From Trypanosoma brucei (Eukaryota), in contig CP000069.1 in assembly GCA_000002445.1 (NCBI GenBank), positions 32,001-96,000 on the forward strand: 64,000 nt of DNA, given 5' to 3'. Of this stretch, positions 12,701-57,085 are shown in pieces (position 1 is the stretch's first letter; every line of letters begins with the position of its first letter). The translations under genes and the position numbers were made by a program. Below the pieces are notes generated by a model. The model did not search any database. It saw nothing but the letters and a program-made list of their open reading frames with translations, and was not told where the DNA came from.

Positions 12701-13110
12701 GTTGGAGCAGCAGCGTGCGGAGGAGGGCGAGAAGTACACACCGCCAACTGCACGGCTGGATCCTGAAGTGTACAGCCGTTTGTGGAATGGCCTGCGTGTA
12801 CGTGTTGGAATCCACACCGGGTTGTGCGATATCCGACACGATGAAGTGACGAAGGGATATGACTACTATGGGCGGACTCCAAACATGGCAGCAAGGACAG
12901 AGAGTGTAGCAAATGGTGGTCAGGTGCTGATGACGCGCTCAACATACCTGTCACTGTCAGCTGAGGAGCGTGAGCAAATTGATGTCACTGCACTTGGTGC
13001 TGTTACACTTCGTGGTGTGCCGAAACCTGTGGAAATGTACCAGTTGAATGCCGTGCCTGGTCGCAACTTTGCTGCATTACGGCTGGACCGTGAAATTAAG
13101 GATGAAGACG
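703..13110 (+). repeat. Segmental duplication, copy 1: ORF-poor spacer plus GRESAG4-A ectodomain, TM and most of the cyclase domain.
   Basis: Collinear with 44680-57085 at a constant offset of about 43,975 bp. Examples: ORF 1746..1928 vs 45722..45904, and GTG-ORF starts 9711 vs 53684. Identity is high, with small indels and homopolymer-length differences. Similarity begins near 703/44680 and decays in the C-terminal tail coding region. Confidence 0.9.
9649..9686 (+). promoter_or_regulatory. Polypyrimidine tract followed by AG. Predicted spliced-leader trans-splice acceptor for GRESAG4-A.
   Basis: The sequence ctgatttctattttccctcttttgatattcttccttAG ends 46 nt upstream of the first ATG (9732). 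This is the typical kinetoplastid polyY-AG acceptor geometry. Confidence 0.55.
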
Positions 13111-24900: not shown

Positions 24901-26953
24901 AAAGGTTCTCCTTGAATCTCACTCTTCCAGTTCGGTTACTCAGAAATGATACGCACCACTTCACAATGTGGGGTGATACCTTCATTTTGTGCATTTCCCT
25001 CGCAATTTTGTCGTGGTCCACTGTATCGAATGCCTTCTCGTAGTCGACAAATACAGCACCTGTACGAGATTGGTGCGTGGGACGGCAGAGGGCAGCGCGG
25101 ACGTGCAGGAGTTGTTCGAGCGTTGAGCATCCGGGGCGAAAGCCTGATTGCTGCGGCGTCAGCTGGGACTCAACAGTGTCTCTAAGCCTCGCGGCAATTA
25201 TGCGCTCCATGACTTTGCAGAGACAGCTCGTGAGCGTCACAGGCCTGTAAGAATCGAGGTCCTCCGCCTTTTTTCCGGCCTTCAGGATGGGGATGATAAC
25301 ACCAGTCTTCCATGCAGACGGCACGGCTCCCGTTCGTAGGCTCTCATTGAATAGCCTCAGAACAACATTCAGCGCTGTTCTACCGAGATGTTGCAGTGCC
25401 TCGTTGTGTAAGCAATCAGGTCCGGCTGCGGATCCACTCGGAAGCAGTTTGATCGATCTCCGTAGTTCAGCCATCGTGATGGGACTGAACTCACTCGCTA
25501 TCGTCTTTATGGGTGCCGGTGGGTGTGCGTCGGGGTGCCTTCTTGCGCGGGACGAGTACAGTTTAATGAACCTCTCAGCTTGACGGTAGTCCGTGATGGC
25601 CGCGTTATCAACAAGTACAGCCGGTGTGGTTAGTGGTCCTGGCGCATATACCTTCTTGACAATGTGCCAACTGCAGCGGTCTGACACCGCAAGTCTGGAG
25701 CATAGCGTGCTCCATCTCTTCTTTGTGGTACGGTCCAGGATCTGCTTACGTGTCACTACCAACTTTTCCCTTCGGTGGGAGGGTCCACATCTAGCGATCT
25801 CTTCATCGAGTTTCGCGGGCTCAGGTGTCCAATGTGGTGGCGTTGCTCTGCAGCCACGGGGGACGGAGACCTTCGTCGCAATGCGGATGGCGGAGCTCAA
25901 TTTCTGTTCCAGGGTGTTGACGTTCTTCTCTCTACCAATTTTCCTGCAGTACTCGTCAACCTTGAGACGGAAATTCCTCCAGGCAGCTTTTAGCCATGCG
26001 TACATGGGCTTTCCAAGCCGCGGGCAGCTCAGTGCATCTGTGCCGTCTCCAACGATAACGTCGAAAAATATGTGATGGTGATCGCTATCGGGAGAATACA
26101 GCGATGTCCACGTGTACACTGTGCAATTCCTTGACAGTGTCACATCAGGGGTGGACTCCCCGTGGTGGCGCGCGTACCTGGTGCACTCACCAGTGTTGCA
26201 GACCAGAAACTGGTTGTCAATGCATCACTGTGTGAGGGTTTCACCCTTGGTATTTGGTGGGCTCGCGCGATCCCATGCCAAAGCGTGTGCGTTAGCGTCT
26301 GCACCGATGAGCTGGGCACCGTCAGTCGTCAGAAGCGTATCTAGGTCAGTTGCCGTGAAGGTGTGTTTTGGTGGGATGTATGCCGACGTGACAGTCAGCG
26401 CCGTTCCACGTGCAAGATGAATTGTTGCATGCACTTGTTCAATGCGACCAACAACGGCCATACCGGTCTCGACTGGTAGGTCCTCCCTCACTAGTATTGA
26501 TACACCACCTCCTTTGCAGTTACGAGCTATTCCGTGATGTTGGTAACCAGCAACGCTAAAGCAAGCCGCCTCTCCAGACGTCATCCTTGTCTCGCTCAAC
26601 AGACAAAAGGCGATCCGCTCATCAACAAGGGTTTTGTGGAGTGCTAATCTCTTTCCTTGAGATAGCCCGGCGCAGTTCCACTGCATCCCGCGCAACGACG
26701 GGCCGGGATTCTCTTCCACATAACCGGACAGCAGCATCTTAGTGCGGATGATACTCCTGATGGCACGCTAGCACGTGCCCAGGGACCGACAAATGAAAAA
26801 CGGTGTCCCAGCAAGACGCTGCTGATCCCTGTGTTGCATGATGCCGTAGCCGGAGCACAGCAGTGTTCCCCATGAAAGGAACGCTACTGACTCTTGGCTT
26901 CCCCCGATGATACGGGTTACTGGACCCTGGCACCACGTTGAGGTGGCCGCCAT
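21980..26953 (-). pseudogene. ingi ORF (endonuclease-RT-zinc-finger polyprotein), disrupted by an in-frame stop in the RIME-derived leader plus two frameshifts.
   Basis: In the leader, the RIME codon CAG (Q) is TAG here (…RSLGTC*). There are frame breaks between 26225/26143 and between 23735/23689. Motifs present: MQWNCAGLSQGKRLALHK, LQHGFFADDLTLLARH, and C2H2 fingers (CTLCASKFAVSGRLLHHLRTIHG, CDLCEASFGTRSSLSLHKKFKH). Confidence 0.85.
26699..26737 (-). other. 2A-like ribosome-skipping peptide coding segment at the start of the ingi-1 main ORF (MLLSGYVEENPGP).
   Basis: The motif ExNPGP is the hallmark of 2A/2A-like StopGo peptides and has been reported in trypanosome non-LTR elements. Here the canonical D before VEENPGP is Y. 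Confidence 0.6.
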
Positions 26954-27023
26954 CGCCAGGGACAAAGAAATATAGCCGCCCTCACCAAGGAAATAATGAG
27001 CGACGGTACGTAACTTGTACTAT

Positions 27024-30000
27024 TACACACAATAATGTGCACTTCGTTCCATTATACGCAATAACGTGCATTTATACGCAATAATGTGCATTTATACGCA
27101 GTAATGTGCATTTATACGCAATAATGTGCATTTATACGCAATAATGTGCAATTTGTGCAATTATACGCAATAATGTGAAATTTGTTTAATTATATGCAAT
27201 AACGTGCAATTTGTGCAATTATACGCAATAACGTGCAATTTGTTTAATTATATGCAATAATGTGCAATAATGTGCAATTTGTTTAATTATACGCAATAAT
27301 GTGCAATTTGTGCAATTATACGCAATAATGTGCACTTTCTTTAATTATATGCAATAACGTGCAATTTGTGCAATTATACGCAATAACGTGCAATTTGTTT
27401 AATTATATGCAATAATGTGCACTTTGTGCCATTATACGCAATAATGTGCATTTATACGCAATAATGTGCACTTTGTGCAATTATACGCAATAACGTGCAA
27501 TTTGTTTAATTATACGCAATAATGTGCATTTATACGCAATAATGCGCACTTTGTTTAATTATATGCAATAATGTGCACTTTGTGCCATTATACGCAATAA
27601 TGTGCATTTATACGCAATAATGTGCAATTTGTGCAATTATACGCAATAACGTGCAATTTGTTTAATTATATGCAATAATGTGCAATTTGTGCAATTATAC
27701 GCAATAATGTGCATTTATACGCAATAATGTGCAATTTGTGCAATTATACGCAATAACGTGCAATTTGTTTAATTATATGCAATAATGTGCAATTTGTGCC
27801 ATTATACGCAATAATGTGCATTTATACGCAATAATGTGCAATTTGTGCCATTATACGCAATAATGCGCACTTTGTTTAATTATATGCAATAATGTGCAAT
27901 TTGTGCAATTATACGCAATAATGTGCATTTATACGCAATAATGTGCACTTTGTGCAATTATACGCAATAATGTGCATTTATACGCAATAATGTGCACTTT
28001 GTGCCATTATACGCAATAATGTGCATTTATACGCAATAATGCGCACTTTGTTTAATTATATGCAATAATGTGCAATTTGTGCAATTATGCGCAATAACGT
28101 GCAATTTGTGCAATTATACGCAATAACGTGCATTTATACGCAATAATGTGCACTTTGTGCCATTATACGCAATAATGTGCATTTATACGCAATAATGCGC
28201 ACTTTGTTTAATTATACGCAATAATGTGCATTTATACGCAATTATGTGCATTTATACGCAATAATGTGCACTTTGTTTAATTATATGCAATAACGTGCAA
28301 TTTGTGCAATTATACGCAATAATGTGCACTTTGTTTAATTATACGCAATAATGTGCATTTATACGCAATAATGTGCACTTTGTTTAATTATACGCAATTA
28401 TGTGCATTTATACGCAATAATGTGCATTTATACGCAATAATGCGCACTTTGTTTAATTATATGCAATAACGTGCAATTTGTGCAATTATACGCAATAACG
28501 TGCAATTTGTTTAATTATACGCAATAACGTGCAATTTGTGCAATTATACGCAATAACGTGCAATTTGTGCAATTATACGCAATAACGTGCAATTTGTTTA
28601 ATTATATGCAATAATGTGCAATTTGTGCAATTATACGCAATAATGTGCATTTATACGCAATAATGTGCAATTTGTGCAATTATACGCAATAACGTGCAAT
28701 TTGTTTAATTATATGCAATAATGTGCAATTTGTGCCATTATACGCAATAATGTGCATTTATACGCAATAATGTGCAATTTGTGCCATTATACGCAATAAT
28801 GCGCACTTTGTTTAATTATATGCAATAATGTGCAATTTGTGCAATTATACGCAATAATGTGCATTTATACGCAATAATGTGCACTTTGTGCAATTATACG
28901 CAATAATGTGCATTTATACGCAATAATGTGCACTTTGTGCCATTATACGCAATAATGTGCATTTATACGCAATAATGCGCACTTTGTTTAATTATATGCA
29001 ATAATGTGCAATTTGTGCAATTATGCGCAATAACGTGCAATTTGTGCCATTATACGCAATAATGTGCATTTATACGCAATAATGCGCACTTTGTTTAATT
29101 ATACGCAATAATGTGCATTTATACGCAATAATGTGCACTTTGTTTAATTATATGCAATAACGTGCAATTTGTGCAATTATACGCAATAATGTGCACTTTG
29201 TTTAATTATACGCAATAATGTGCATTTATACGCAATAATGTGCACTTTGTTTAATTATACGCAATTATGTGCATTTATACGCAATAATGTGCATTTATAC
29301 GCAATAATGCGCACTTTGTTTAATTATATGCAATAACGTGCAATTTGTGCAATTATACGCAATAACGTGCAATTTGTTTAATTATACGCAATAACGTGCA
29401 ATTTGTGCAATTATACGCAATAACGTGCAATTTGTGCAATTATACGCAATAACGTGCAATTTGTTTAATTATATGCAATAATGTGCACTTTGTGCCATTA
29501 TACGCAATAATGTGCATTTATACGCAATAATGTGCACTTTGTGCAATTATACGCAATAACGTGCAATTTGTTTAATTATACGCAATAATGTGCAATTATA
29601 CGCAATAACGTGCAATTTGTTTAATTATACGCAATAACGTGCAATTTGTGCAATTATACGCAATAACGTGCAAATTGTGCAATTATACGCAATAACGTGC
29701 AATTTGTGCAATTATACGCAATAACGTGCAATTTGTTTAATTATACGCAATAATGTGCATTTATACGCAATAATGTGCAATTTGTGCAATTATACGCAAT
29801 AATGTGCAATTTGTTTAATTATATGCAATAACGTGCAATTTGTGCAATTATACGCAATAACGTGCAATTTGTTTAATTATATGCAATAATGTGCAATAAT
29901 GTGCAATTTGTTTAATTATACGCAATAATGTGCAATTTGTGCAATTATACGCAATAACGTGCAATTTGTTTAATTATATGCAATAATGTGCAATAATGTG

Positions 30001-30056
30001 CAATTTGTTTAATTATACGCAATAATGTGCACTTTGTTTAATTATACGCAATAATG
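27024..30056. repeat. AT-rich satellite, block 1. The units are a 20-bp unit TATACGCAATAATGTGCATT and 29-bp variants TATACGCAATAA(T/C)GTGCAATTTGTGCAAT and TATATGCAATAA(C/T)GTGCAATTTGTTTAAT. They are arranged in irregular higher-order repeats.
   Basis: Direct inspection shows ~3 kb of head-to-tail units of ~30% GC with point variants. There is no ORF signal. It starts ~60 bp after the ingi-1 5' TSD. Confidence 0.9.
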
Positions 30057-30330
30057 TTCATTTTGTGTATGAAAATACAAAACAAGAAAAATAAGCGGGG
30101 CAACGTTGTAATGGAAGCTGTATCTTGCTGTCGAAGACTTAGAAATATATTTACCATAATGCGATGATGGCAACTCGTTTGGAGAGGGAAAAACAGTACG
30201 TAAGCTGGTTTCATTATAAAATTTATGAAGTTGATCGGGGGATGAAGTATTAGAAGGTGCTTAGTTTTCTCCGCTCCCTTATCGATCGATATTTAGGAGT
30301 GAAGTCGCATTTTAATATGCTGCGGGTGGT
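30057..30330 (+). repeat. Unique ~275-bp array-edge segment, copy 1. It is duplicated at 32421-32700 and is followed directly by the N gap.
   Basis: 30057-30330 and 32421-32695 are essentially identical (ttcattttgtgtatgaaaatacaaaacaag … ctgcgggtggt). Confidence 0.85.
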
Positions 30331-30390
30331 NNNNNNNNNNNNNNNNNNNNNNNNNNNNNNNNNNNNNNNNNNNNNNNNNNNNNNNNNNNN
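30331..30390. other. Assembly/scaffold gap of 60 N.
   Basis: A literal run of n. The flanking sequence changes abruptly from the unique edge segment to satellite. Confidence 0.99.
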
Positions 30391-32420
30391 TTGTGCAATT
30401 ATACGCAATAATGTGCATTTATACGCAATAATGTGCACTTTGTGCCATTATACGCAATAATGTGCATTTATACGCAATAATGCGCACTTTGTTTAATTAT
30501 ATGCAATAATGTGCAATTTGTGCAATTATGCGCAATAACGTGCAATTTGTGCAATTATACGCAATAACGTGCATTTATACGCAATAATGTGCACTTTGTG
30601 CCATTATACGCAATAATGTGCATTTATACGCAATAATGCGCACTTTGTTTAATTATACGCAATAATGTGCATTTATACGCAATAATGCGCACTTTGTTTA
30701 ATTATATGCAATAACGTGCAATTTGTTTAATTATATGCAATAATGTGCGCTTTGTTTAATTATATGCAATAATGTGCACTTTGTTTAATTATACGCAATA
30801 ATGTGCACTTTGTTTAATTATATGCAATAATGTGCGCTTTGTTTAATTATATGCAATAATGTGCACTTTGTTTAATTATACGCAATAATGTGCATTTATA
30901 CGCAATAATGTGCAATTTGTGCAATTATACGCAATAACGTGCAATTTGTTTAATTATACGCAATTATGTGCATTTATACGCAATAATGTGCATTTATACG
31001 CAATAATGTGCACTTTGTGCCATTATACGCAATAATGTGCACTTTGTTTAATTATATGCAATAACGTGCAATTTGTGCAATTATACGCAATAACGTGCAT
31101 TTATACGCAATAATGTGCATTTATACGCAATAATGTGCACTTTGTTTAATTATATGCAATAACGTGCAATTTGTGCAATTATACGCAATAATGTGCACTT
31201 TGTTTAATTATACGCAATAATGTGCATTTATACGCAATAATGTGCAATTTGTTTAATTATACGCAATAATGTGCAATTTGTTTAATTATACGCAATAATG
31301 TGCAATTTGTTTAATTATACGCAATAATGTGCATTTATACGCAATAATGCGCACTTTGTTTAATTATATGCAATAACGTGCAATTTGTGCATTTATACGC
31401 AATAATGTGCAATTTGTTTAATTATACGCAATAATGTGCAATTTGTTTAATTATACGCAATAATGTGCATTTTGTTTAATTATACGTAATAATGTGCAAT
31501 TTGTTTGATTATGCGCAATAACGTGCAATTTGTTTAATTATACGCAATAATGTGCAATTTGTGCAATTATACGCAATAATGTGCATTTATACGCAATAAT
31601 GTGCACTTTGTTTGATTATGCGCAATTATGTGCATTTATACGCAATAATGTGCACTTTGTTTGATTATGCGCAATAATGTGCATTTTGTTTAATTATACG
31701 TAATAATGTGCAATTTGTTTGATTATGCGCAATAACGTGCAATTTGTTTAATTATGCGCAATAATGTGCAATTTGTGCAATTATGCGCAATTATGTGCAT
31801 TTATACTCAATAATGTGCACTTTGTTTGATTATGCGCAATTATGTGCATTTATACGCAATAATGTGCACTTTGTTTGATTATGCGCAATAACGTGCAATT
31901 TGTGCAATTATACGCAATAACGTGCAATTTGTGCAATTATACGCAATAACGTGCAATTTGTGCAATTATACGCAATAATGTGCAATTATACGCAATAACG
32001 TGCATTTATACGCAATAATGTGCACTTTGTGCCATTATACGCAATAATGTGCAAATTGTTTAATTATACGCAATTATGTGCATTTATACGCAATAATGTG
32101 CCATTATACGCAATAATGTGCAATTTGTTTAATTATACGCAATTATGTGCATTTATATGCAATGTGTGCATTTATACGCAATAATGTGCATTTATACGCA
32201 ATAATGTGCAATTTGTTTAATTATACGCAATTATGTGCATTTATACGCAATAATGTGCATTTATACGCAATAATGTGCACTTTGTGCCATTATACGCAAA
32301 AATGCGCACTTTGTTTAATTATATGCAATAATGTGCAATTTGTGCAATTATACGCAATAACGTGCAATTTGTTTAATTATACGCAATAATGTGCAATTTG
32401 TTTAATTATACGCAATAATG
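30391..32420. repeat. AT-rich satellite, block 2 (same 20/29-bp family).
   Basis: Same unit family as 27024-30056. It ends in the unique edge segment 32421-32700, which abuts ingi copy 2. Confidence 0.9.
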
Positions 32421-32700
32421 TTCATTTTGTGTATGAAAATACAAAACAAGAAAAATAAGCGGGGCAACGTTGTAATGGAAGCTGTATCTTGCTGTCGAAG
32501 ACTTAGAAATATATTTACCATAATGCGATGATGGCAACTCGTTTGGAGAGGGAAAAACAGTACGTAAGCTGGTTTCATTATAAAATTTATGAAGTTGATC
32601 GGGGGATGAAGTATTAGAAGGTGCTTAGTTTTCTCCGCTCCCTTATCGATCGATATTTAGGAGTGAAGTCGCATTTTAATATGCTGCGGGTGGTCGAATA
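32421..32700 (+). repeat. Unique array-edge segment, copy 2.
   Basis: Identical to 30057-30330. It continues for a further ~40 bp (32701-32740) before the ingi-2 poly(A). Confidence 0.85.
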
Positions 32701-32740
32701 ACCCCCCTCCGGTATAATAGCACTACTTGAAAGAAAATGA

Positions 32741-35700
32741 TTTTTTTTTTTGGAATTTTCTTCGTGCCTTCGTGAGAGTTTCCCCCCACTGGCGCGGGCA
32801 TCAGCCATCACCGTATAGCCCTGAGATGCTATCGGTCTGGCGACTGTGGCAGAGTCTCCCTTTTTTATTAGGCCTAACACACTCTCTATAATTTTTGTTG
32901 TAGCTCCACAGTTAAACGGAATACAGCAGATGGGGCGAGAAGCCTCCCACCCTGGACTCTCCCAGAGATGTCAATTAGCAATCCTTTTGTTTTGATTTTT
33001 GTTATTCGTTTATTATTCTCTCTCCCTCTTTCTGTTTCTGTTGCTTGTTGACTGCATACCCCCTGTCTTTGAGGGTGTCTGGACTATTCCTGCGTCCGGT
33101 GCTTTTCCTGCTAGCTCCACACTCGGCAATAAGGGGGGAAGTTGTAGAAGGGAGAGTGGGTTGTATGACTGTTACATTAGGTGAGGACTTCACCTGCGGC
33201 CGGCTCCGTTCAACCGCAATGAGAAACTGCGCCAGACTTTTAGAGAAACATATATCCTGCACACACTCACCTTCCACCGCAAACCTGACACGTAACTCCT
33301 TCAAACCGGGACAGCTCATCAAGTGCAGCGACGTTTCTTCGCAGTCGCCGCGTTGGCTGGTAACAGCGCGCTCTACCTTCATACCGTGCATCTTCTTTTG
33401 ATGTAGGGTGAGGCCAGTTTTGCTAGCACACTGCCTTCCGCATGTCGGGCACACCAACATGGATGTGTTTGTATGCGGGGAATCAGTGGCACACAATTTT
33501 GTGCTTTTGCTGCATTCAAGCTCGACTCCCTCACCTTTTTGGAAAGCCTTACAATGTCGGATGAGGGAGTCCCTGCAACTGAGCACTTTTTGGCACACAC
33601 CACACTGCACCTCGCCTTTCCCCGGGACGTCAACGTTTCCCTCACGGGCACGCTTACGAGGGAATTGCACCACCACCACGGTACCGTCCTCCGTCACTAT
33701 GCTCTTATGTTTGAATTTCTTGTGTAGTGACAGGGAAGAGCGTGTACCGAAGCTCGCCTCACACAGGTCACATTGAAACGGCAGCTTCCGTGTATCCTGA
33801 GAGGCTGGCGCTGCTGGGGCTTTACCATCTCCTTGCACTGAGTCCTCGTTCTCTCGCCCCCTTTTCACGCGGCAACTACCGCTACCTATGCCATGTATTG
33901 TTCTAAGGTGGTGTAATAGTCGGCCTGGCACTGCGAATTTGGAGGCACAGAGGGTACAATGAAGCACCTGCGGTCTCATCGGGACTCGTGTGCTCGATGG
34001 TAGAGGAACGATCGCCACCACTGGAGGGGGCTCCGGGGGGATATCCACTGCAGGTGTTGCATCGCCGTATTTGATCCTCCGGAGGGCATCAGCTCGCACA
34101 AAGCCATGTTTGTTTACCATATGCGTTACAGCACTCGAGCGGCATTGGTATGTGGCATCACATTCCGTACATTTGGTCGGTTCGGAGGTTCTCTGAACAG
34201 TGCGTGTCGCAACAGTTGGGACTGTTTGTATTGTTGGTCCTATCGCTGCATGTTGCGGGTTACACCATCGGCACTGTGGAGGCACGCTACACGCGGGTTG
34301 ATCTTTCGCAACATCCATCCATAGTGTCTTGAAGACCCAACCCGAAAGCGTGCCAGTGCCGTTTCTTGTTCCCTCGTCAGTTCTTCTTTATGTTTTGTTG
34401 GAAAGTGGTTGCCCGTGATACCAAACCTATGAGTGTTCTCATGGACTTCTTCCGACCTAAGCACTCGCTTCGCATAAGCAATGATGTCGGGGATCCATGC
34501 GTCTCGCAACTGTGGTAAATCTGCGGCCTTTTTGGCCATTTCATCACAAACCTCATTCCGTTTCACGCCACAATGGCCAAACACAAATTGCAGTCGGATA
34601 CGCAACTTCCTTCTCTGAACGTGAAGCAGAAGCCTCCATAGTCGTCTCAGAATTGGGTCCGTTACGGCTAGGGGGCCTGTCTGCAGTGCTGTTAACATTG
34701 ACAGCGAGTCAGAGAAGATGGACAACCTGCTCGGTGTGCTTCTGTATGCCGGAAGCCATTTCAGCAGCCGTTGCAGTCCTATCTCTAATGCTACGCATTC
34801 CGCTCTGTAACCGCATGAGAGTCCCCCTTCTCCGGTCTTGGGTGCACAAATCAGCGTGTTGTTTCTATAGAGCAGGGCAGCTGCTCCGGACTTATCACCG
34901 AGGGACACGGATCCATCAGTCCACAATTCGTGGTGCTCTCGTCGCGGTGGCTCCTTCCCCCTCCGTGCAAAATGCCGTTCAATCCACTTTTCGGAAGCCT
35001 CCATTTTAACATCGTCGGGGTCATCAGCGCACACAGGCTTTATCTGCATGTGAAATATCGGTCGGCAGCTGTGGCGGAGCGTCGATGTCTCTAGTGGGTG
35101 CTCGTGTGGCTCAATGCGGAGGTGGGGATAGGACCGCATGATGCGGGAATGTAGGGCTCTGACTGGGTGTTTGCTGTGGTATACTTCTTCAGCACTGCGC
35201 CGCAAACATCCGCCTCGTGACTCACACATCAGCATGAATTTCATGCTGCGCACAAGAGTGGTCGTCTTGAGTGGCAGGAGGTTTGCTTCCAGCAGAGAGT
35301 CCTCTTTGCGCGTCCCATGCGGTATGCCAGCTATGATGCGACTGGCTTTGTGTTGTGCTGATGCAAGGAGGTCGCGACTTCGTTCCGAAGCGTCCCAGTA
35401 CCATACCTCAATGCCATACATGGTGTGTGCCTGTACGAGTGCTAGATAAAAAGCTCTCAGTACTTGTCGTCTTGGCCCCCATGTAGAAACTGAGATGGCT
35501 GCTATCTGCAGTAGTCGGAAGTCCATCTTGCGTCTCGTTTCGGTCGCATGTGTTGCCATCCCCTGCAGACACTGGAATGTTACTCCTAGAAGCTTTGGTG
35601 TCCTGTCAGCTCCTATTCTTTCGCTGTCCAGTTGCAATGTAAGGGGGTGGCGCTCTATACACCCGAAGAGTGTGCACTTTGTTTTCGCTACGTTGACAGA

Positions 35701-37724
35701 CATGAAGTACTCTTTTGACCACTGTAACACCACGTTTAGACCGCATTGTAGTGTGTGGTTGATGACATCCCTCTCTGTGTGCCTCGCAAGCATCGTCAGG
35801 TCGTCTGCAAAGAATCCGTGCTGCAGTAACGGCACTTCTGCAAGGCATTGGCTCAACGAGTTCATGACAATAATGAACATGATTGGGCCAAGGACAGTTC
35901 CTTGTGGCACTCCTCGCTCAAATGTTCTGCTTCTGGAGAGCTTCTCCTTGAATCTCACTCTGCCAGTTCGTTTACTCAGAAATGATACGCACCACTTCAC
36001 AATGTGGGGTGATACCTTCATTCTGTGCATTTCCCTCGCAATTTTGTCGTGGTCTACTGTATCAAATGCCTTCTCGTAGTCAACGAATACAGCGCCCGTA
36101 CGATATTGGTGCGTGGGACGGCAGAGGGCAGCGCGGACGTGCAGGAGTTGTTCGAGCGTTGAGCATCCGGGGCGAAAGCCTGATTGCTGCGGCGTCAGCT
36201 GGGACTCAACAGTGTCTCTAAGTCTCGCGGCAATTATGCGCTCCATGACTTTGCAGAGACAGCTTGTGAGCGTCACAGGCCTGTAAGAATCGAGGTCCTC
36301 CGCCTTTTTTCCGGCCTTCAGGATGGGGATGATAACACCAGTCTTCCATGCAGGCGGCACGACTCCCGTTCGTAGGCTCTCATTGAATAGCCTCAGAACA
36401 ACATTCAGCGCTGTTCTGCCGAGATGTTGCAGTGCCTCGTTGTATAAGCAATCAGGTCCGGCTGCGGATCCACTCGGTAGCAGCTTGATCGATCTCCGTA
36501 GTTCAGCCATCGTGATGGGACTGAACTCACTCGCTATCGTCTTTATGGGTGCCGGTGGGTGTGAGTCGGGGTGCCTTCTTGCGCGGGACGAGTACAGTTT
36601 AATGAACCTCTCAGCTTGACGGCAGTCCGTGATGGCCGCGTTATCAACAAGTACGGCCGGTGTGGTTAGTGGTCGTGGCGCATATACCTTCTTGACAATG
36701 TGCCAACTGCAGCGGTCTGACACCGCAAGTCTGGAGCATAGCGTGCTCCATTTCTTCTTTGTGGTACGGTCCAGGATCTGCTTACGCGTGGCTACCAACT
36801 TTTCCCTTCGGTGGGAGGGTCCGCATCCAGCGATCTCTTCATCGAGTTTCGCGAGCGCAGGTGTCCAATGTGGTGGCGTTGCTCTGCAGCCACGGGGGAC
36901 GGAGACCTTCGTCGCAATGCGGATGGCGGGGCTCAATTTCTGTTCCAGGGTGTTGACGTTCTTCTCTCTACCAATTTTCCTGCAGAACTCGTCAACCTTG
37001 AGACGGAAATTCCTCCAGTCAGCTTTTAGCCATGCGTACATGGGCTTTCGAAGCCGCAGGCAACTCAGTGCACCTGTGGCCTCTCCAACGATAACGTCGA
37101 AAAATATGTGATGGTGATCGCTATTGGGAGAATACAGCGATGTCCACGTGTACACTGTGCAATTCCTTGACAGTGTCACATCAGGGGTGGACTCCCCGAG
37201 GTGGCGCGCGTACCTGGTGCACTCACCAGTGTTACATACCAGAAACTGGTTGTCAATGCACCACTGTGTGAGGGTTTCACCCTTGGTATTTGGTGGGCTC
37301 GCGCGATCCCATGCCAACGCGTGTGCGTTAGCGTCTGCACCGATGAGCTGGGCACCGTCAGTCGTCAGAAGCGTATCTAGGTCACTTGTCGTGAAGGTGT
37401 GTTTTGGTGGGATGTATGCCGACGTGACAGTCAGCGCCGTTCCACGTGCAAGATGAATTGTTGCATGCGCTTGTTCAATTCCCCCAACAACGGCCATACC
37501 GGTATCGACTGGTAGGTCCTCCCTCACTAGTATTGATACACCACCTCCTTTGCAGTTACGAGCTATTCCGTGAGGTTGGTAGCCAGCAACGCTAAAGCAA
37601 GCCGCCTCTCCAGGCGTCATCCTTGTCTCGCTCAACAGACAAAAGGCGATCCGCTCATCAACAAGGGTTTTGTGGAGTGCTAATCTCTTTCCTTGAGATA
37701 GCCCGGCGCAGTTCCACTGCTCCA
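32741..37724 (-). mobile_element. ingi retrotransposon, copy 2. It is 5'-truncated (~4.98 kb): it lacks the ~270-bp RIME-type 5' leader and 2A region but has a normal 3' end with a poly(A) tail.
   Basis: The 3' end is GGGGGGAAACTCTCACGAAGGCACGAAGAAAATTCC + A11 (T-run 32741-32751 on the plus strand). Homology to copy 1 is lost at 37724. No recognisable TSD was found. Confidence 0.85.
33002..37724 (-). pseudogene. ingi ORF, copy 2. It has a long 1161-aa segment (endonuclease+RT+RNase-H region) and a 438-aa zinc-finger C-terminus in another frame. This indicates one frameshift and an N-terminal truncation.
   Basis: ORFs 34240..37725(-) and 33002..34318(-) overlap by ~80 nt in different frames. 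The translations are ~95% identical to the copy-1 pieces. Confidence 0.8.
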
Positions 37725-39600
37725 CGTACGGTTTTGCACTTTTGCAACACTCATTTGTGGCAGCTTTTCCGCAAGCAGGGGGAACTCACCACACTGCCAT
37801 GGAAGCAAGATTCTCATTTCCTCACTGGTACACTCCCATCTTCCATTATTTTACCACTGCGACGTCCGGAGACGCGTTCAGGGCCCTTCGGAAAGCAGTT
37901 TCGCGTAGGAGCGACTTGCGCATCCAAGGAAAACACTAGCATGAGGATTGTGCCCCCCGCCCCCAGCCCCTTCGTATTCTTGCGCCCTTCAAGTCCCATC
38001 CGCCACTGAGCACCATGGTTGCTGTGCTTGGGGCTCCGTCCGACATTTCCCACAAGAAGCAGGAGACAGCTGCCTTTCACCCAAGTGCGCTGCCACGGCC
38101 TCCCGCGCCGTCTCGGTTACTTTCCTCATCCCAAGAGTCAGGCAATTCGCAGCACTTTCCGCCCATTCATCAACAGCCCTCCACCAACGTCCTTCAAGTT
38201 TCCCTAAAGAAGGCGCTGGCGCGTAACTTGCTGCACGCACGGATGGCGGCCGTGTGCCAACGCCGCGATGAGGCTTCCGGTGCAACCGAGAGGCGCGGCC
38301 GAAAGTGGGAGCGAGAGCTCTCCCAACTATTTGGGAGGTGGAGTCTCGCCAACGATACTTTGGGTTATCTTTCTCCTGTGGGAATTACTGTCGGAAATGA
38401 CGCCAGCTGCGTCGGCTCGATCGTTCCCCTCAGGACGTTTCATATTCAGAGGAAAACGAACCATGCATCGTTTACGTTGCGCATACGGACGATATGGCCC
38501 TCCGGGCTGTCTGAATCGACCAACGTCGCAAGTGATGCTCGCGAAGTGCGCGGGGGGGGGGGGGTGCCATCCCCCCTTTGGATGTACGATGGAAAGAAAA
38601 AAACCATTTAAGTGTCCGGGTTCCTTCACTTACATGGATGCCGAAAAAACGGTCGATGGGATTCTCCACTTTGCAGATGCCTTTCCCATGAGTGGTGGCT
38701 GCTTATCCCTGAAAAGTGATGCTGGAATACAGTTGCAAACGCCATCGCTGGAGGGAGGTGGTTGCAACTATGGGAAGGAATGTGCCCACCCTTCTCTACC
38801 AACTCGGGCGCATCAGCTAATGTCAACAGCGGGGGAAAAATCTCGGGTTGCTTGCCAGAGGTCTTCTTTTGCGTAGTGGTCCGTGCCTGCGCTTCCCCGT
38901 GAGCACTGCCACTGCACCGACACGGCGATTGTCTCAGCTCCCTCGTTCCGCCTGAGGAGTGTGTGCCACGGCAAAAGCTCACCCCATGCATTTTTGAACT
39001 TTGGGCCCACACACAAAATTGAGGTGGCTTGTAAGGCTGGTTCCCCTTGGTCGCTATTCGCGTGACGGCTTAAAATCCACTAATTATGGCTGTGGTTTCC
39101 GGCAAGCATGAACCAAGCGACTGCCTTGCCACAGTCTTGAAGTTGCAACAACTGCGACAGCTCATTGCACAGCACCTGCTCATGGTAATTGACGGGAAAT
39201 AAATGCGTTGCAACCCGTAAACGTCTTTTCCAACCGTTGTTTCGCTTCTTTGAAACAATTCCCCCTTCACGCGCTCCACTGCAAGTAGCGGGTGCGCTCG
39301 CACCGTGAATCTTTTGGTTGATCGTCCCGAAACACGAAGGGAGCAAAGCCCTTCCCCCCTTCAGGGGAAAGCGAAGCGGCATTTCCAAAAAGTCTAGTTG
39401 CAACTTTCCTTTTGTGTGCAACTAATTCAAAAATGACAGGATGCCATAGTTACCGTGGGGTGGAAACCACAAGAGGTATCATACTCATGCAGGTGAACAG
39501 CTGCGCTGTTACGGTTAATGGCACATCAGCGAAACCGAGGGCAAGATACACAATGCGTGCCTACAAACCCAGAGGTTTCCGTCCACCAGGAAGAGCTGCA
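37725..39600. other. Unassigned GC-rich block abutting the truncated 5' end of ingi-2. It has multiple overlapping medium ORFs with no recognisable domains.
   Basis: Its composition contrasts with the surrounding sequence; it contains G12 at 38555-38566. ORFs 38015..38611(+), 38268..38876(+) and 38626..39012(-) have no motifs I can assign. There is no copy elsewhere in the window. Confidence 0.3.
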
Positions 39601-40195
39601 TCGCATTGCTGTAGTTAGACAGCATATATGTTAATTAGTGTTGAATTAACGGGCAAACTAGCGGCAACATTTGCGCACCAAAGGTAGCGAGAAAAAACAA
39701 AAAGCTAGAAGTAAGAATAAAAGCGTAAAGAGACTTAACGCCATGTGCATGCAAAAAAACTTTCCCCATCCAAGTAGGCGTACCATAGCTGAAAAAACAA
39801 AAACAACGCCACCTGCGATATGTCAATAAACTATTTTTTCTGTTCCGTTGACAGGGTGGTGGTGGAGATTGCGCGTCATTTTGCATCCCTTTGCAAAAAA
39901 AACAACAACGAACAAACAAAAGCAAAGAGAAACAGATTGAGGTTTACTGTAACCGTTCCCTTTCAGTGTTCACAAACACTAAAAATCCGTTTAACGATGG
40001 TATGAGGATAATCAGATATCTTAGAGAGTCATTTTCAACGAGCAAAAGAATAAAAACACCAAATAACAACAAATTGGCTGTTGTGCTTTCTAAAGGTGGT
40101 AAGTGTTGGCCGATACACTTCATTCTACGCATATAACACACGGCCTCAACTGCGAAGACGCAGTTTTGTTGCTGAGGAAGAAGGCTTCGCGTTTT

Positions 40196-43100
40196 TTATG
40201 CCTCATGTTCCGCAAAGTGGTTTGCAATAATAATCAGCGACGCGCTCCTCAGCGTGCTGACTGACCGTTCGGTGCCACTGGATGCGCAGAGATCTACCAC
40301 ACGTCCAACTTTAACCGCGATGCGGCATATGATTTCCTCACAGCATTTATCGTCCCACTTGTCTTTCGCTCCAGCAGGAAACGGCACATGCCAACGCTCA
40401 CACAAGGGAACGAGCAACTTCCGCCGTTGTGCTGCGGCGAATGTGCCCAGAAGAGCTTGTAGAGAACTGGCGATCATCAGCGAAGACCCATTCATTCCTC
40501 CGCGAACGGAGCTTACATCGCTGGCTGTTGCGGAGGAACAATCTGACTTGTCGAAGTACTCGCGGTCTAATTGCAGTGCGGTGAAGACACGACCAGGCAC
40601 GGCATTCAACTGGTACATTTCCACAGGTTTCGGCACACCACGAAGTGTAACAGCACCAAGTGCAGTGACATCAATTTGCTCACGCTCCTCAGCTGACAGT
40701 GACAGGTATGTTGAGCGCGTCATCAGCACCTGACCACCATTTGCCACACTCTCTGTCCTTGCTGCCATGTTTGGAGTCCGCCCATAGTAGTCATATCCCT
40801 TCGTCACTTCATCGTGTCGGATATCGCACAACCCGGTGTGGATTCCAACACGTACACGCAGGCCATTCCACAAACGACTGTACACTTCAGGATCCAACCG
40901 TGCAGTTGGCGGTGTGTACTCACATTCTCCCTCCGTGCATTGCTCCTCAAACTCACGGTAGGAATCATCAATCGCATTTGTTCCCCAGTCATGATGCAAG
41001 AAACACAGCTGTAATTCCTGTGCGAGTTGGACGGCAGCGAAAGGACTCTTACTCGCTATCATGAACGAATCCCCAACAGTTTTGACTTCGTAGCAGTCAT
41101 ACCTCGCAATCAGTGAACGAATCATACGATGATGCGCGGCGACGGCATCAGGCATCAGCTCAGGGTGTGCAGCCCACAACGCAGTGCTGCTCTCAATGTC
41201 AGTAAATATTAGTGTCACGGGGTCAGTTGGCTCTCTAGGTGCACGGTTGTTGTTACGACTTAGGCGCAACAAATACAACATCGTTGCTACCAATGCCGCA
41301 ACGACCGCCAGAGCGATGAGAGCGCCAGCGATAAGGCCTGCAAGTTCGGCGTTCGTGAGTTGGCCTTCTTGAGGATTAAGGTATTTTATCGACGGTGTCA
41401 CTGGCGAGGTAAGTGGCAACACTGAGGCGTCTAACGCCCGAGCCGCGGACCACAGGGAAATGCGCGTCGCGCCGTAGTTAACTATACAGCTTTCCGCGTC
41501 ACTGGCATCCCCACCGAGGGGCTCGGCGCAGGTATCACTGGCAAAGGGGCCATACCGCATATCGTCAACGGCAATGACCGATTGTGCAAAGATGGTCTCG
41601 GTCAGAGTCTTCGGGGTCACCTTTTCCGTGAATTGAAGGACAGTCCTCGTGAACCTTGCGGTAGCGAACCCAAGCAACCTCAGTGGCGTCCAAACGGAAG
41701 GAGCACGTAGCGCAGCGTGGAACCTTCGTACGGTCTCTGATGTTGTGTTGACGTCTGCCCAGTGGGGCAGACTCGTGGGGAAGAGAAGGCGGTAAGCGCT
41801 CGGGCTGCCATTAAATGTGCGCGCGATACCACTGTACATCAAGGCCATGTCAAAGAACGGCACGAATACATACACATCAGGGTTAGCATCAAGGTGATCT
41901 TTAAGCTCTCCGACATCAGCGACGTTGATTCCGATGACAATGGCATATCCGTCTTTCGGAAGCTTCTCTTTCAATGCCGCAACCTTGTCTAACGTAGCAA
42001 ATGAGTCCAGCGAGGTGCCGGTGGCCAAAAACGTTCTTCGAATTGCGTCCTCGACTCCCTGCGCGTTCCTGCCACGAAATAAAACGGACGCTCTTCCAGA
42101 CGCTTTGCGCACCAGATACCCCGAAATCACAAATAACTGCTGTTCCAGCGTTGGTGACAGGTAGATCACATTGCTTCCGTTATGGCGAAGTTCCGGATTT
42201 AGCGTTATAGGGTCAATAAATACGACATCCGCCGTCGCAAGCATTTCTTCACTCACTGCGCCAAATAGAGCCGTAACAACCTTAGTGTCCAACTCGTGCA
42301 TCAGTGCTGAAGATGCAGCGCTTGACGCCGAAGCTCTACCCTGTAAAAACAAGCGGTCGGATTGACCAAACGTTCCATCGCCAGTAAGGACACTAACGCC
42401 ACCGTATATCTCCCCATTGGCTCTTAGTGCAGCCGGGTTATCCCACAAAAGAAATATCAAACCATTCACGGGAGACTCCACTCTCATGCCATCGTAGTAA
42501 CAACTAGACGGATTGAATACAGTTAACCCGTTGCGAATGTCGACCAATGCGTAATCGCTTGATAGAGAGTTCAGGTAAACCACGTTCCCCCCCTGGTTGC
42601 AGTTGCAGGCCGCTCCGTAATCAGCTGCCGCTGACCCGCATTCCCCACCGAAGTCACCAATCACAAGGTCGTTAATGACGTACCGGCGTTGCCTGTAAAG
42701 CGATTCCATGTATTCCTTCCTGCTACTAAGAAACTCGCGATTCGCTAGGGATTGGGACAACACCTCACCAACGATCCACCCGTACATCACTGGCTCTCCG
42801 TCTACACCGTAGAGATCTGTGATATTCAAAGAACTGTACTGGCCCGAGTTGGTGTGGTCGTTTAAGTACGACTCCACATCACTTCGGCAACGACGAACAG
42901 CGGCGTATTCAGTGCTGGTCGGCCTGGGGACGACTCCTGTTAATATCACTTGGTCGGTCTTCAACGTGACGTTGAGAGCATCAGCTGCCCACCGCCACGC
43001 ACTTTCGATTTCAGCCTCATGCGGTAAAGTGGAAAGGAAATGCGCATCCCGTGTGCGGTTATCAACAATCATATTCTTTATGAACTTTGCTGTATCTTCT

Positions 43101-43831
43101 GACAGTGGTGAAAAAATGATCACACCCTGCGGATGCGTTTCTGCAAACCGGTTCCATGCAGTGTCAAATTCGGAAGAATCCGCTTCCCCCGTTACAGAGC
43201 TCTTTACAGTGAACACGCCACACAATTCACGACCCATATGCGACATCAGCTCCACAGCTAGCAAGTACTCGTTGTCCCCAAATGAGACATTCTGCAGGTA
43301 CATGAAACCAATCCGTCGCAAACGCAGTTGTGTTACTGCAAAACGAAGCAGTGTCAGTAACTCAGCAACGGGCGAAACAAATAGAAAGTAGAGATTTGGG
43401 TTCCACCCACGCACAGAGTTTGAACCAGTGTAGGGACCAAGAGTGACCAAGTTTTCCTGTTTAAGCAAAGGCATGAAAGATAATGCGTCAGCGTCATTAA
43501 GGGGCCCAACCGACACAAATAACTCATCCCTGTTTTGTTCTATGGCCGTCTGCAAGCCATCAACGGGTTCGGCGTCGTACGATGACGGATGAACAACTTC
43601 CACACTCACATTCGACTCACGAAGCCACTGCTTTGATGCCATTGATGCATTGAAACCAATGCCGATCGCATCATTGTAATGTGCAGGAACAGCGGCCCCG
43701 TACAACAAATAATATACTTTAACGTGTATATCATCTGCTGCACCAGACAACGATGCCGCTGATACGATCATTAGGAGCACCAAAGACATCATCTTTGTGC
43801 CGGGCATGTGGCGCCACTGCAGGACACACAT
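40196..43831 (-). CDS. GRESAG4: Receptor-type adenylate cyclase, GRESAG4 family, copy B. Its ectodomain is divergent; its catalytic domain is near-identical to copy A at the nucleotide level.
   Basis: ORF-track 40196..43909 starts at TTG. In-frame ATGs lie at 43831, 43807 and 43792/43789. The signal peptide MMSLVLLMIVSAASLSGAADD favours 43792; 43831 is the first ATG. The TM is LAGLIAGALIALAVVAALVATMLYLL. The catalytic block runs from VTLIFTDIESSTALW… to …EMYQLNAVPGR. Confidence 0.88.
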   Translation of the reverse strand: MCVLQWRHMPGTKMMSLVLLMIVSAASLSGAADDIHVKVYYLLYGAAVPAHYNDAIGIGFNASMASKQWLRESNVSVEVVHPSSYDAEPVDGLQTAIEQNRDELFVSVGPLNDADALSFMPLLKQENLVTLGPYTGSNSVRGWNPNLYFLFVSPVAELLTLLRFAVTQLRLRRIGFMYLQNVSFGDNEYLLAVELMSHMGRELCGVFTVKSSVTGEADSSEFDTAWNRFAETHPQGVIIFSPLSEDTAKFIKNMIVDNRTRDAHFLSTLPHEAEIESAWRWAADALNVTLKTDQVILTGVVPRPTSTEYAAVRRCRSDVESYLNDHTNSGQYSSLNITDLYGVDGEPVMYGWIVGEVLSQSLANREFLSSRKEYMESLYRQRRYVINDLVIGDFGGECGSAAADYGAACNCNQGGNVVYLNSLSSDYALVDIRNGLTVFNPSSCYYDGMRVESPVNGLIFLLWDNPAALRANGEIYGGVSVLTGDGTFGQSDRLFLQGRASASSAASSALMHELDTKVVTALFGAVSEEMLATADVVFIDPITLNPELRHNGSNVIYLSPTLEQQLFVISGYLVRKASGRASVLFRGRNAQGVEDAIRRTFLATGTSLDSFATLDKVAALKEKLPKDGYAIVIGINVADVGELKDHLDANPDVYVFVPFFDMALMYSGIARTFNGSPSAYRLLFPTSLPHWADVNTTSETVRRFHAALRAPSVWTPLRLLGFATARFTRTVLQFTEKVTPKTLTETIFAQSVIAVDDMRYGPFASDTCAEPLGGDASDAESCIVNYGATRISLWSAARALDASVLPLTSPVTPSIKYLNPQEGQLTNAELAGLIAGALIALAVVAALVATMLYLLRLSRNNNRAPREPTDPVTLIFTDIESSTALWAAHPELMPDAVAAHHRMIRSLIARYDCYEVKTVGDSFMIASKSPFAAVQLAQELQLCFLHHDWGTNAIDDSYREFEEQCTEGECEYTPPTARLDPEVYSRLWNGLRVRVGIHTGLCDIRHDEVTKGYDYYGRTPNMAARTESVANGGQVLMTRSTYLSLSAEEREQIDVTALGAVTLRGVPKPVEMYQLNAVPGRVFTALQLDREYFDKSDCSSATASDVSSVRGGMNGSSLMIASSLQALLGTFAAAQRRKLLVPLCERWHVPFPAGAKDKWDDKCCEEIICRIAVKVGRVVDLCASSGTERSVSTLRSASLIIIANHFAEHEA

Positions 43832-44679
43832 GACACGCTTACCCGTGTCCAAAATACGCGGCCAGAAGCTCGAAGAAACAAATATACAGTGGCCAGTATC
43901 CTTACTCAATTGTCTTTAACTAGGTGATGGTTCATAATGTCAAAGAATCATGTTAGGCGGAGAAGGATACCGGCGTCGACATAGAGAATTACGATACGGG
44001 GGCGATAGTGATGAACGCAGTAATATTAGGTGGAACTTCCCGTGTTACTGGGAAGTGAGGCGACGTCCCGACAACTGTTTCACACGAATCCCAACAAAGA
44101 GGAAGGGTAATATTTTCAACGACTAAATTATTCTGTCTTTCTCCAGGTTGTCGCACCGCTATTCGACGGAGCATTCTACCTTTAGATTGCTGGGATGCAG
44201 TATGGGTCCTTGAGGCGCGAATAGGCTTCTCGGACATGTAATCACCAGAGACATGTTTCTTCATTTTGTAATTCATCAAGTGTGTGTGCCCTTTGGGAAG
44301 TGTGACATACGCCTACCCAAGATGAACAAATACCCGTGCATGTATGACAATACTAACTAGCATGAATTCGCAATGTTCAAACTCGTTGCCTGCGTTACGC
44401 GCCCCAGTTTTTTCATGGGCAAATGCGCCCTCACATGACATGAACAATGAAAATTGCACTGTGCAAAATACACACCACCACAAAGCGACACGCATCGATC
44501 TAGCACGGAAACGCACCATATTTTAAATCTCTACACACCGACGGACACAAACCATCACCACTCGGCTTCCTCTGCCGTCTTTTACACACAGCTCAACATC
44601 GAGAGTCACCAAATTATCCGGGAGGGAGGGAGGGGGAAACACTAACGATCCACCCAGAACCAACAACACCTACTGTTGG

Positions 44680-56600: not shown

Positions 56601-57085
56601 AACTCGCACAGGAACTACAGCTGCGTTTCTTGCATCATGACTGGGGAACAAATGCACTTGATGAGTCCTACTGGGAGTTCGAGCAGCAGCGTGCGGAGGA
56701 GGACGAGAAGTACACACCGCCAACTGCACGGTTGGATCCTGAAGTGTACAGTCGTTTGTGGAATGGCCTGCGTGTACGTGTTGGAATCCACACCGGGTTG
56801 TGCGACATCCGACACGATGAAGTGACGAAGGGATATGACTACTATGGGCGGACTCCAAACATGGCAGCAAGGACAGAGAGTGTAGCAAATGGTGGTCAGG
56901 TGCTGATGACGCATGAGGTTTACCTGTCACTGTCAGCTGAGGAGCGTGAGCAAATTGATGTCACTGCACTTGGTGATGTTGCACTTCGCGGCGTGAATGA
57001 TCCTGTGGAAATGTACCAGTTGAATGCCGTGCCTGGCCGCAACTTTGCTGCATTACGGCTGGATCGCGAATTCTTTGATGAAGAC
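44680..57085 (+). repeat. Segmental duplication, copy 2: spacer plus GRESAG4-C.
   Basis: See copy 1. The same set of spurious short ORFs recurs (47274/3297, 48340/4363, 50005/6026, 52534/8565 and others). Confidence 0.9.
53621..53659 (+). promoter_or_regulatory. Polypyrimidine tract + AG. Predicted SL trans-splice acceptor for GRESAG4-C.
   Basis: Same sequence and position relative to the ATG (53705) as upstream of copy A. Confidence 0.55.

What the first reader, a model, noticed from the sequence alone, without database searches (positions are those of the whole stretch)
30057..32700. N gap plus duplicated unique edge segment: the satellite array is probably collapsed or mis-joined
The same ~275-bp unique sequence occurs twice. 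One copy sits immediately before the 60-N gap (30057-30330). The other sits at the true array edge next to ingi-2 (32421-32700). A contig ending in the edge segment followed by a gap and more satellite is the classic signature of an unresolved tandem array. The real array size and the order of the two blocks are therefore uncertain.
Basis: seen in the sequence. Interest (0 to 1): 0.5.

Follow-up and report, generated by a model that had tools for sequence, protein, structure and literature searches.

The report
Unclosed gap in trypanosome centromere satellite
This is the documented, never-closed assembly gap inside the centromeric AT-rich satellite of Trypanosoma brucei TREU927 chromosome 6; the repeated 298-bp edge piece is most likely one physical array boundary written twice, and the real array is at least ten times longer than assembled.

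Summary
Window 30033-30330 is identical, 298 of 298 bases, to 32397-32694. Copy 1 stops exactly at a 60-N run (30331-30390). Copy 2 runs on for 46 bp into the poly(A) end of a minus-strand ingi retrotransposon.

The window is T. brucei TREU927 chromosome 6, 32,001-96,000. The satellite is that chromosome's centromeric ~29-bp AT-rich array.

- Obado 2007 lists this array as containing a gap of unknown size.
- Echeverry 2012 sized the region at 315 kb against 253 kb predicted, giving an array of at least 55 kb against 5.4 kb assembled.
- A Nanopore assembly of strain Lister 427 gives 103.7 kb for the chromosome 6 centromere.

An independent assembly of the same DNA, a contaminant scaffold in the Schistosoma mansoni genome, reproduces the satellite-edge-ingi-2 order for copy 2 only.

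Copy 1 is most likely a contig-end redundancy: overhanging reads, an unmerged clone overlap, or the other haplotype. A real second copy, for example from ingi-ingi unequal crossover, is not excluded (about 0.12).

Interest is low. This is a known reference-assembly defect at a known centromere.

The parts
21706..26963 (-). ingi-1, a full-length non-LTR retrotransposon left of the array. Poly(A) appears as T12 at 21706-21717. The 5' end (CCATCGCCAGGGAC, reverse complement of the conserved ingi/RIME start) is at 26950-26963. A near-perfect target-site duplication is CAAAGAACTA (21696-21705) / CAAAGAAATA (26963-26972).
   Evidence: 96.9% identity to ingi-2 over 4987 bp; RVT_1, RNase_H and zf-C2H2 hits.
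27020..30056 (.). Pre-gap block of the centromeric AT-rich satellite (about 3.0 kb). Basic period 29 bp with 20-bp variants (49, 78, 107 bp). GC 0.30. It contains long exact internal duplications: 27622-28111 = 28558-29047 (490 bp) and 28244-28620 = 29111-29487 (377 bp). This is a higher-order unit of about 0.9-1.0 kb.
30057..30330 (.). Edge segment copy 1: 274 bp of non-satellite sequence, cut off by the gap. With the preceding 24 bp of satellite it is 298/298 identical to copy 2.
30331..30390 (.). 60-N placeholder: the unclosed sequence gap inside the chromosome 6 centromeric array.
   Evidence: PMC1868937 Table 1 footnote.
30391..32420 (.). Post-gap block of the same satellite (about 2.0 kb). 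Its first 293 bp are identical to 27950-28242 of the pre-gap block. It carries variants absent from the pre-gap block (TTGATTATGCGC at 31505-31875; GTGCGCTTTG at 30745 and 30832).
   Evidence: Positions 31298-32420 are reproduced in the independent scaffold L001.
32421..32694 (.). Edge segment copy 2: the array boundary supported by a second assembly.
32695..32740 (.). 46-bp unique spacer (CGAATAACCCCCC...AAAATGA) between the edge segment and the poly(A) end of ingi-2. There is no counterpart after copy 1, because the gap begins there.
32741..37723 (-). ingi-2, a non-LTR retrotransposon right of the array. Poly(A) appears as T11 at 32741-32751. It is 5'-truncated or replaced beyond 37723. It carries the SfiI site (34525-34537) used in the published mapping.

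Best explanation
The region is the centromeric ~29-bp AT-rich satellite of T. brucei TREU927 chromosome 6. It lies between two directly repeated ingi retrotransposons and next to an rRNA gene fragment. In the Sanger-era clone-based reference it was never closed.

Two contigs were placed in series with a 60-N placeholder. The left contig is ingi-1, a collapsed array, and a short run-out into the right-hand flank. The right contig is array, edge, then ingi-2.

There is one physical array-edge boundary per chromosome. Copy 1 of the edge segment (30033-30330) is that same boundary represented a second time at the end of the left contig. Possible causes are overhanging or misplaced reads, an unmerged overlap between neighbouring clones, or the junction of the other homologue.

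The true array is roughly 55-100 kb, built from many near-identical higher-order units of about 1 kb. The assembly keeps about five of these.

Shown: the identity and position of the locus, the duplicate, the gap, the higher-order structure, and the published physical size. Inferred: that copy 1 is redundant rather than a second physical copy, and which assembly step produced it.
For: 1. Locus identity.
2. The gap is documented in print as being of unknown size.
3. The PacI fragment is 315 kb against 253 kb predicted, while the SfiI fragment to the right is as predicted (160 vs 167 kb). About 60 kb is therefore missing at or left of the array. The Lister 427 Nanopore chromosome 6 centromere is 103.7 kb, full length, 70% AT.
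4. Copy 1 ends exactly at the gap. The shared stretch (298-333 bp) is shorter than one Sanger read.
5. There are 0 differences in 298 bp. Real paralogues in the same window differ by 1.9-3.3%. The chance of no difference at 3.1% divergence is about 8e-5. Allelic or same-locus sequence fits this well.
6. The repeat graph is visibly ambiguous. The first 293 bp of the right contig equal 27950-28242, after which the two contigs continue differently. The left contig has exact internal repeats of 490 and 377 bp.
7. Scaffold L001 reproduces the order satellite, edge, 46 bp, ingi-2, GRESAG4 at 99.7%. It disagrees by a net 17 bp inside the satellite (32221-32275). So even the 'resolved' satellite is not reproducible between assemblies.
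Against: No reads, read depth or second assembly were available for the end of the left contig, so redundancy of copy 1 is inferred and not observed.

The satellite immediately upstream of the two copies differs in monomer order beyond 59-88 bp, with one C/A difference at 30032. Two distinct junction sequences therefore exist in the data. That is what a real second copy would also give.

The published mapping localises the missing ~60 kb only to chr6:18,830-66,533, because the upstream side could not be sized separately. The authors state they cannot prove the missing DNA is all tandem repeat.

Lister 427 is a different strain.
Confidence: 0.82

Rival explanations
1. There is a real second copy. 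The centromere holds at least two satellite blocks, each ending in the edge segment. This could arise by unequal crossover between the directly repeated ingi-1 and ingi-2, which would produce a tandem [array-edge-46 bp-ingi] unit. The gap would then hide the 46-bp spacer, a hybrid ingi and the left part of the second block.
For: Two ~5-kb ingi copies, 96.9% identical and in direct orientation, bracket the array and are good substrates for unequal crossover. The two array-edge junctions differ upstream of about 88 bp and at 30032. About 60 kb is missing and is not proven to be pure satellite. The Nanopore centromeres of Lister 427 are described as very variable in sequence content.
Against: There are 0 differences in 298 bp, where the ingi pair has 3.1%. 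Copy 1 stops exactly at the contig end, so no distinct right flank is seen. Only the copy-2 context is reproduced in the independent scaffold. If the duplication were recent enough to leave the unique part identical, more than 59-88 bp of the adjoining satellite would be expected to be shared.
Confidence: 0.12
2. The left contig is a truthful, complete short array. One homologue, or a rearranged BAC insert, really reads ingi-1, 3.0 kb of satellite, edge. The right contig comes from the other homologue or clone.
For: The left contig runs from a unique left flank through satellite into the unique right flank. Homologues of other T. brucei chromosomes differ in array length, for example 20 vs 65 kb on chromosome 1. 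AT-rich tandem arrays are prone to deletion in E. coli clones (general knowledge).
Against: PacI mapping shows one band of 315 kb for chromosome 6 and no band near the 253 kb that a ~3-5 kb array would give. If a clone had spanned the array, the contig would have continued into ingi-2 and no gap would have been left.
Confidence: 0.04

Closest known systems
Centromeric AT-rich repeat arrays of T. brucei megabase chromosomes, ~30-bp class of chromosomes 1 and 6 (Obado et al. 2007, PMC1868937)
   Same: It is this very locus, at chr6 59,066-64,433. It has ~30-bp units and 70-71% AT. It is flanked by ingi/DIRE retroelements and lies next to rRNA genes. The array is listed as containing a gap.
   Different: Nothing differs. 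The duplicated 274-bp edge segment at the gap is not mentioned in the passages of these papers that I read.
Under-assembled centromeric arrays of the TREU927 reference (Echeverry et al. 2012, PMC3292466)
   Same: Chromosome 6 is one of the eight arrays shown by long-range restriction mapping to be far longer than in the sequence: 5.4 kb assembled against at least 55 kb.
   Different: For chromosome 6 the upstream flank could not be sized separately. The excess is therefore assigned to the array by inference.
Lister 427 chromosome 6 centromere in the Nanopore assembly, tig00000648 (PMC11739655)
   Same: It is on the same chromosome and has the same AT content (70%). It is 103.7 kb, scored full length, and shows the array can be traversed with long reads.
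   Different: It is a different strain. It is reported to give many matches to the 177-bp and 59-bp repeat motifs.
Generic collapsed tandem repeat with redundant contig ends in Sanger/BAC assemblies
   Same: There is an N placeholder inside the repeat. A unique flank is repeated at a contig end with 100% identity. There are branching exact overlaps between contigs.
   Different: Read-level evidence (depth, mate pairs) could not be examined here.

Membership tests
T. brucei centromeric AT-rich satellite (chr 1/6 ~30-bp class) | Tandem array of ~30-bp AT-rich units (66-71% AT) | tested here: met
   TRF period 29, with 49 and 107. Autocorrelation peaks at 29 bp (0.72). GC 0.30.
T. brucei centromeric AT-rich satellite (chr 1/6 ~30-bp class) | Sits at the published chromosome 6 coordinates | tested here: met
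   27066..32431 plus 32000 gives 59066..64431, against the published 59066..64433. The SfiI cut is at 66533. There is no PacI site. A TREU927 GRESAG4 protein is 100% identical.
T. brucei centromeric AT-rich satellite (chr 1/6 ~30-bp class) | Flanked by ingi/DIRE retroelements and adjacent to rRNA genes | tested here: met
   ingi-1 and ingi-2. LSU rRNA fragment at 18350-21591.
T. brucei centromeric AT-rich satellite (chr 1/6 ~30-bp class) | Topoisomerase-II cleavage, kinetochore protein binding, early replication origin | not testable with these tools
   Experimental. Reported for this chromosome in PMC1868937 and PMC11739655.
Collapsed / unresolved tandem array at an assembly gap | N placeholder inside the repeat, with a contig end repeating a unique flank | tested here: met
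   60 N at 30331-30390. 298/298 identity ending at the gap.
Collapsed / unresolved tandem array at an assembly gap | Physical size larger than the assembled size | tested here: met
   From the literature, not recomputed here. PacI fragment 315 vs 253 kb, array at least 55 kb vs 5.4 kb. 103.7 kb in Lister 427.
Collapsed / unresolved tandem array at an assembly gap | Excess read depth over the satellite and single-copy total depth over the edge segment | not testable with these tools
   No read data were available.
Real segmental duplication of [array-edge(-ingi)] | Each copy has its own distinct flank on both sides | tested here: inconclusive
   The left (satellite) flanks differ beyond 59-88 bp. 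The right flank of copy 1 is missing because the gap begins there.
Real segmental duplication of [array-edge(-ingi)] | Divergence between copies comparable to other paralogues of the region | tested here: not met
   0/298 differences, against 1.9-3.3% for the other duplications in the window.
ingi non-LTR retrotransposon (flanking elements) | Endonuclease, reverse transcriptase, RNase H and C2H2 domains; poly(A) tail; target-site duplication | tested here: met
   Pfam hits. T11-T12 runs at 21706 and 32741. The ingi-1 target-site duplication matches 9 of 10 bases. ingi-2 lacks its 5' end, so its duplication could not be checked.

The most novel reading that the evidence does not exclude
The edge segment is truly present twice on TREU927 chromosome 6. 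Unequal crossover between the two directly repeated ingi elements would have tandemly duplicated an [array-edge-ingi] module. The centromere would then be a set of satellite blocks punctuated by retroelements rather than one continuous array, and the gap would hide a hybrid ingi. This would make retroelement-mediated recombination a driver of centromere expansion in trypanosomes.
Probability: 0.12. Interest if true: 0.35.

Novelty: already known. Interest (0 to 1): 0.1.

Why it matters
The importance is mainly practical. Anyone mapping ChIP-seq, MFA-seq, siRNA or variant data to the TREU927 reference at the chromosome 6 centromere should know three things:
- The array is under-represented about 10-20-fold.
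- The 2364-bp spacing of the two edge copies is an artefact of a placeholder.
- Reads from the single real boundary will split between two identical targets. This halves apparent depth or gives zero mapping quality at the true array edge.

It adds nothing new about centromere biology unless the second copy proves to be real.

Tried and rejected
1. I looked for independent assemblies of the edge segment by exact look-up of the ORFs that cross it (58 aa, 32402-32578; 88 aa, 32614-32880). Neither is on record.
2. A homologue search with the 88-aa ORF at E<=10 found nothing.
3. An exact 35-mer from the end of the shared segment was scanned against the metagenome contigs. There were 0 hits.
4. Look-ups of the neighbouring GRESAG4 genes gave mixed results. 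The first-ATG version of 40196-43831 and the TREU927 protein P0021 are not on record. The homologue search led to P0001 and the S. mansoni contaminant scaffold L001. L001 covers only copy 2 and ends at 31298, before the gap.
5. I tested whether the right contig is a colinear 'bubble' of the last 2.4 kb of the left contig. Global alignment gives about 95% identity in aligned columns. Other registers of the satellite score almost as well (1571 vs 1478-1546), so the test does not discriminate.
6. I looked for cloning-site signatures at the contig ends. There is no EcoRI, HindIII or BamHI site, and the nearest GATC is 46 bp away. This was uninformative.
7. The 177-bp minichromosome repeat primer sequences, recalled from memory, have no match within 3 mismatches.
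8. The bacterial genome, phage, plasmid and E. coli collections were not searched, because they cannot contain this DNA.

Full report
**1. What is in the sequence**

The window holds a single N run of 60 bases at 30331-30390. The 30 bases before it recur once, at 32665-32694. Extending leftwards at a constant offset of 2364 gives 298 identical bases: 30033-30330 = 32397-32694. One C/A mismatch follows at 30032/32396. Identity then continues to 29998, after which the two sequences part.

Of the shared stretch, 274 bp (30057-30330 and 32421-32694) is non-satellite DNA with GC 0.38. It has no other copy in the window at blastn word size 7. Copy 1 is cut by the gap. Copy 2 continues for 46 bp (CGAATAACC…AAAATGA) into a T11 run. 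That run is the poly(A) tail of a minus-strand retroelement.

The shared part of copy 2 ends at 32694, not 32700.

**2. The surroundings**

The satellite has two blocks:
- The pre-gap block, about 27020-30056.
- The post-gap block, 30391-32420.

Both have a 29-bp basic period with 20-bp variants, and GC 0.30.

Two ~5-kb elements bracket the satellite in direct orientation: 21706-26963 and 32741-37723. They are 96.9% identical. They encode endonuclease, reverse transcriptase, RNase H and C2H2 finger domains, which is the ingi architecture.
- ingi-1 is full length, with a 9-of-10 target-site duplication.
- ingi-2 loses homology at 37723.

A partial LSU rRNA gene lies at 18350-21591. Receptor-type adenylate cyclase (GRESAG4) genes lie at 9711-13538, 40196-43909 and 53684-57469.

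**3. Where the window comes from**

Four independent checks place it on T. brucei brucei TREU927 chromosome 6, bases 32,001-96,000:
- The ORF at 9711-13538 is 100% identical to a GRESAG4 protein of TREU927 that lies on a 1,618,915-bp contig.
- Echeverry et al. 2012 give TRF-defined coordinates for the chromosome 6 centromeric array of 59066..64433. My TRF limits, 27066 and 32431, differ from these by 32000 and 32002.
- Their SfiI site '2.1 kb downstream of the array' is at 66533. The window has GGCCTTTTTGGCC at 34525-34537, which cuts at 34533.
- Their PacI sites (18830 and 271659) lie outside the window, and the window has none.

**4. What is already known about this array**

- Obado et al. 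2007 list chromosome 6 as having ~30-bp units, 71% AT, size 'unknown'. [quoted passage not shown] They map etoposide-induced topoisomerase-II cleavage, a centromere marker, to these arrays.
- Echeverry et al. 2012 found a PacI fragment of 315 kb where 253 kb was predicted. The SfiI fragment to the right was as predicted (160 vs 167 kb). [quoted passage not shown]
- They note two limits. The upstream side could not be sized separately. They also cannot prove that all missing DNA is tandem repeat.
- A Nanopore assembly of strain Lister 427 reports a full-length chromosome 6 centromere of 103.7 kb with 70% AT.

**5. Internal evidence for collapse**

- The pre-gap block contains exact internal repeats of 490 bp (27622-28111 = 28558-29047) and 377 bp (28244-28620 = 29111-29487). 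The offsets of 936 and 867 bp point to a higher-order unit of about 0.9-1.0 kb.
- The first 293 bp of the post-gap block equal 27950-28242, after which the two contigs continue differently. This is a branch in the repeat graph that Sanger reads cannot resolve.
- A ~55-100-kb array built from such units would collapse in exactly this way.

**6. An independent assembly of part of the locus**

The homologue search returned a protein 100% identical to the GRESAG4 at 40196-43831 but labelled Schistosoma mansoni. Its 20,024-bp RefSeq scaffold is NW_017386306.1, locus L001 here. It aligns to window 31298-51290 at 99.7%.

It is T. brucei DNA that contaminates the S. mansoni assembly. It reproduces the order satellite, edge, 46 bp, ingi-2, GRESAG4, so copy 2 is the corroborated array boundary.

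Inside the satellite it differs from the window by a net 17 bp at 32221-32275. Even the 'finished' satellite is not reproducible between assemblies. L001 stops at 31298 and says nothing about the gap or copy 1.

**7. What copy 1 is**

I commit to the reading that it is the same physical boundary written twice (confidence 0.82). The reasons are:
- It ends exactly at the contig end.
- The shared stretch is shorter than a Sanger read.
- It shows no difference in 298 bp. Genuine paralogues in the same window differ by 1.9-3.3%, so the chance of no difference at 3.1% is about 8e-5.
- Only the copy-2 context is reproduced elsewhere.

Which step produced it cannot be decided here. The candidates are overhanging reads attached to the collapsed left contig, two overlapping clone sequences concatenated instead of merged, or the junction of the other homologue in this 'haploid mosaic' reference.

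The satellite upstream of the two copies differs in monomer order beyond 59-88 bp. This fits the haplotype or mixed-consensus variants. It also fits a real second copy. A global alignment of the two contig tails is not clearly better than other registers.

**8. Rivals**

A real duplication of an [array-edge-ingi] module by unequal crossover between the two direct ingi copies is mechanistically plausible and is not excluded (0.12). It predicts a hybrid ingi inside the gap, two SfiI fragments with an edge probe, and 2x depth over the segment.

A genuinely short (3-kb) allele is unlikely (0.04), because only a 315-kb PacI band was seen.

**9. Dead ends**

- Exact look-ups of the ORFs that cross the edge found nothing.
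- A homologue search with the 88-aa ORF found nothing.
- A metagenome scan with a 35-mer found nothing.
- Cloning-site inspection at the contig ends was uninformative.
- The 177-bp repeat primer sequences, recalled from memory, have no match.

**10. Verdict**

- The feature is a known defect of a reference assembly at a known centromere.
- Interest is low (0.1).
- The only open point is whether a second physical edge copy exists. Long reads or simple depth and k-mer counts on TREU927 data would settle it.

Noticed in passing
window 31298-51290 (locus L001 1-20024) and window 53684-57469: Two Schistosoma mansoni RefSeq scaffolds are T. brucei chromosome 6 DNA. The first is NW_017386306.1 (20,024 bp). 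The second is the 17,444-bp contig that carries Smp_112590. NW_017386306.1 is 99.7% identical to the window. Smp_112590 is 1253/1254 identical to the GRESAG4 at 53684-57469. Both proteins are named as S. mansoni proteins in public databases. This is cross-project contamination.
   Followed up: partly
window 706-13111 vs 44682-57087: There is a 12.4-kb direct duplication at 96.7% identity. Each copy carries a GRESAG4 adenylate cyclase gene, and the two copies bracket the whole rRNA-ingi-satellite-ingi centromeric region. A 2-kb inverted repeat, 13959-15966 vs 64000-61984 (98.1%), runs off the window end.
   Followed up: no
window 19655-19907: A 254-bp piece is 92.5% identical to the 3' end of ingi. 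It lies inside the span of the LSU rRNA match (18350-20831, minus strand). It looks like a RIME/ingi-derived insertion in or next to the rRNA gene fragment.
   Followed up: no
window 40196-43909 (minus): This is an intact 1197-1211-aa GRESAG4 ORF. The only identical database protein returned is the one labelled S. mansoni. No TREU927-named protein above 56% identity came back, so the gene may be unannotated or marked as a pseudogene in the TREU927 record.
   Followed up: no
window 21696-21705 and 26963-26972; 37723: ingi-1 has a near-perfect target-site duplication (CAAAGAACTA / CAAAGAAATA). It therefore inserted as a simple event about 55 bp from the left end of the satellite. ingi-2 loses homology 275 bp before the expected 5' end and is followed by unrelated GC-rich sequence.
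   Followed up: partly
window 27020-32420; Lister 427 Chr6_core_Tb427v10 139-3344: In Lister 427 the chromosome 6 centromere gives very many FIMO matches to the minichromosome 177-bp and 59-bp repeat motifs. There are 1307 and 244 in tig00000648. Some listed hits in Tb427v10 are offset by 29 bp. This suggests that the 29-bp satellite here is related to the 177-bp repeat at motif level. The recalled 177-bp primer sequences do not match the window.
   Followed up: partly
window 31505-31875: A run of variant monomers (TTGATTATGCGC, six copies) occurs only in the post-gap block. A GCAATAATGTGCAATAATGT variant occurs only in the pre-gap block, near its left end (about 27249) and just before edge copy 1 (about 29878 and 29975). 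The two blocks are therefore compositionally distinct sub-domains of the array.
   Followed up: partly
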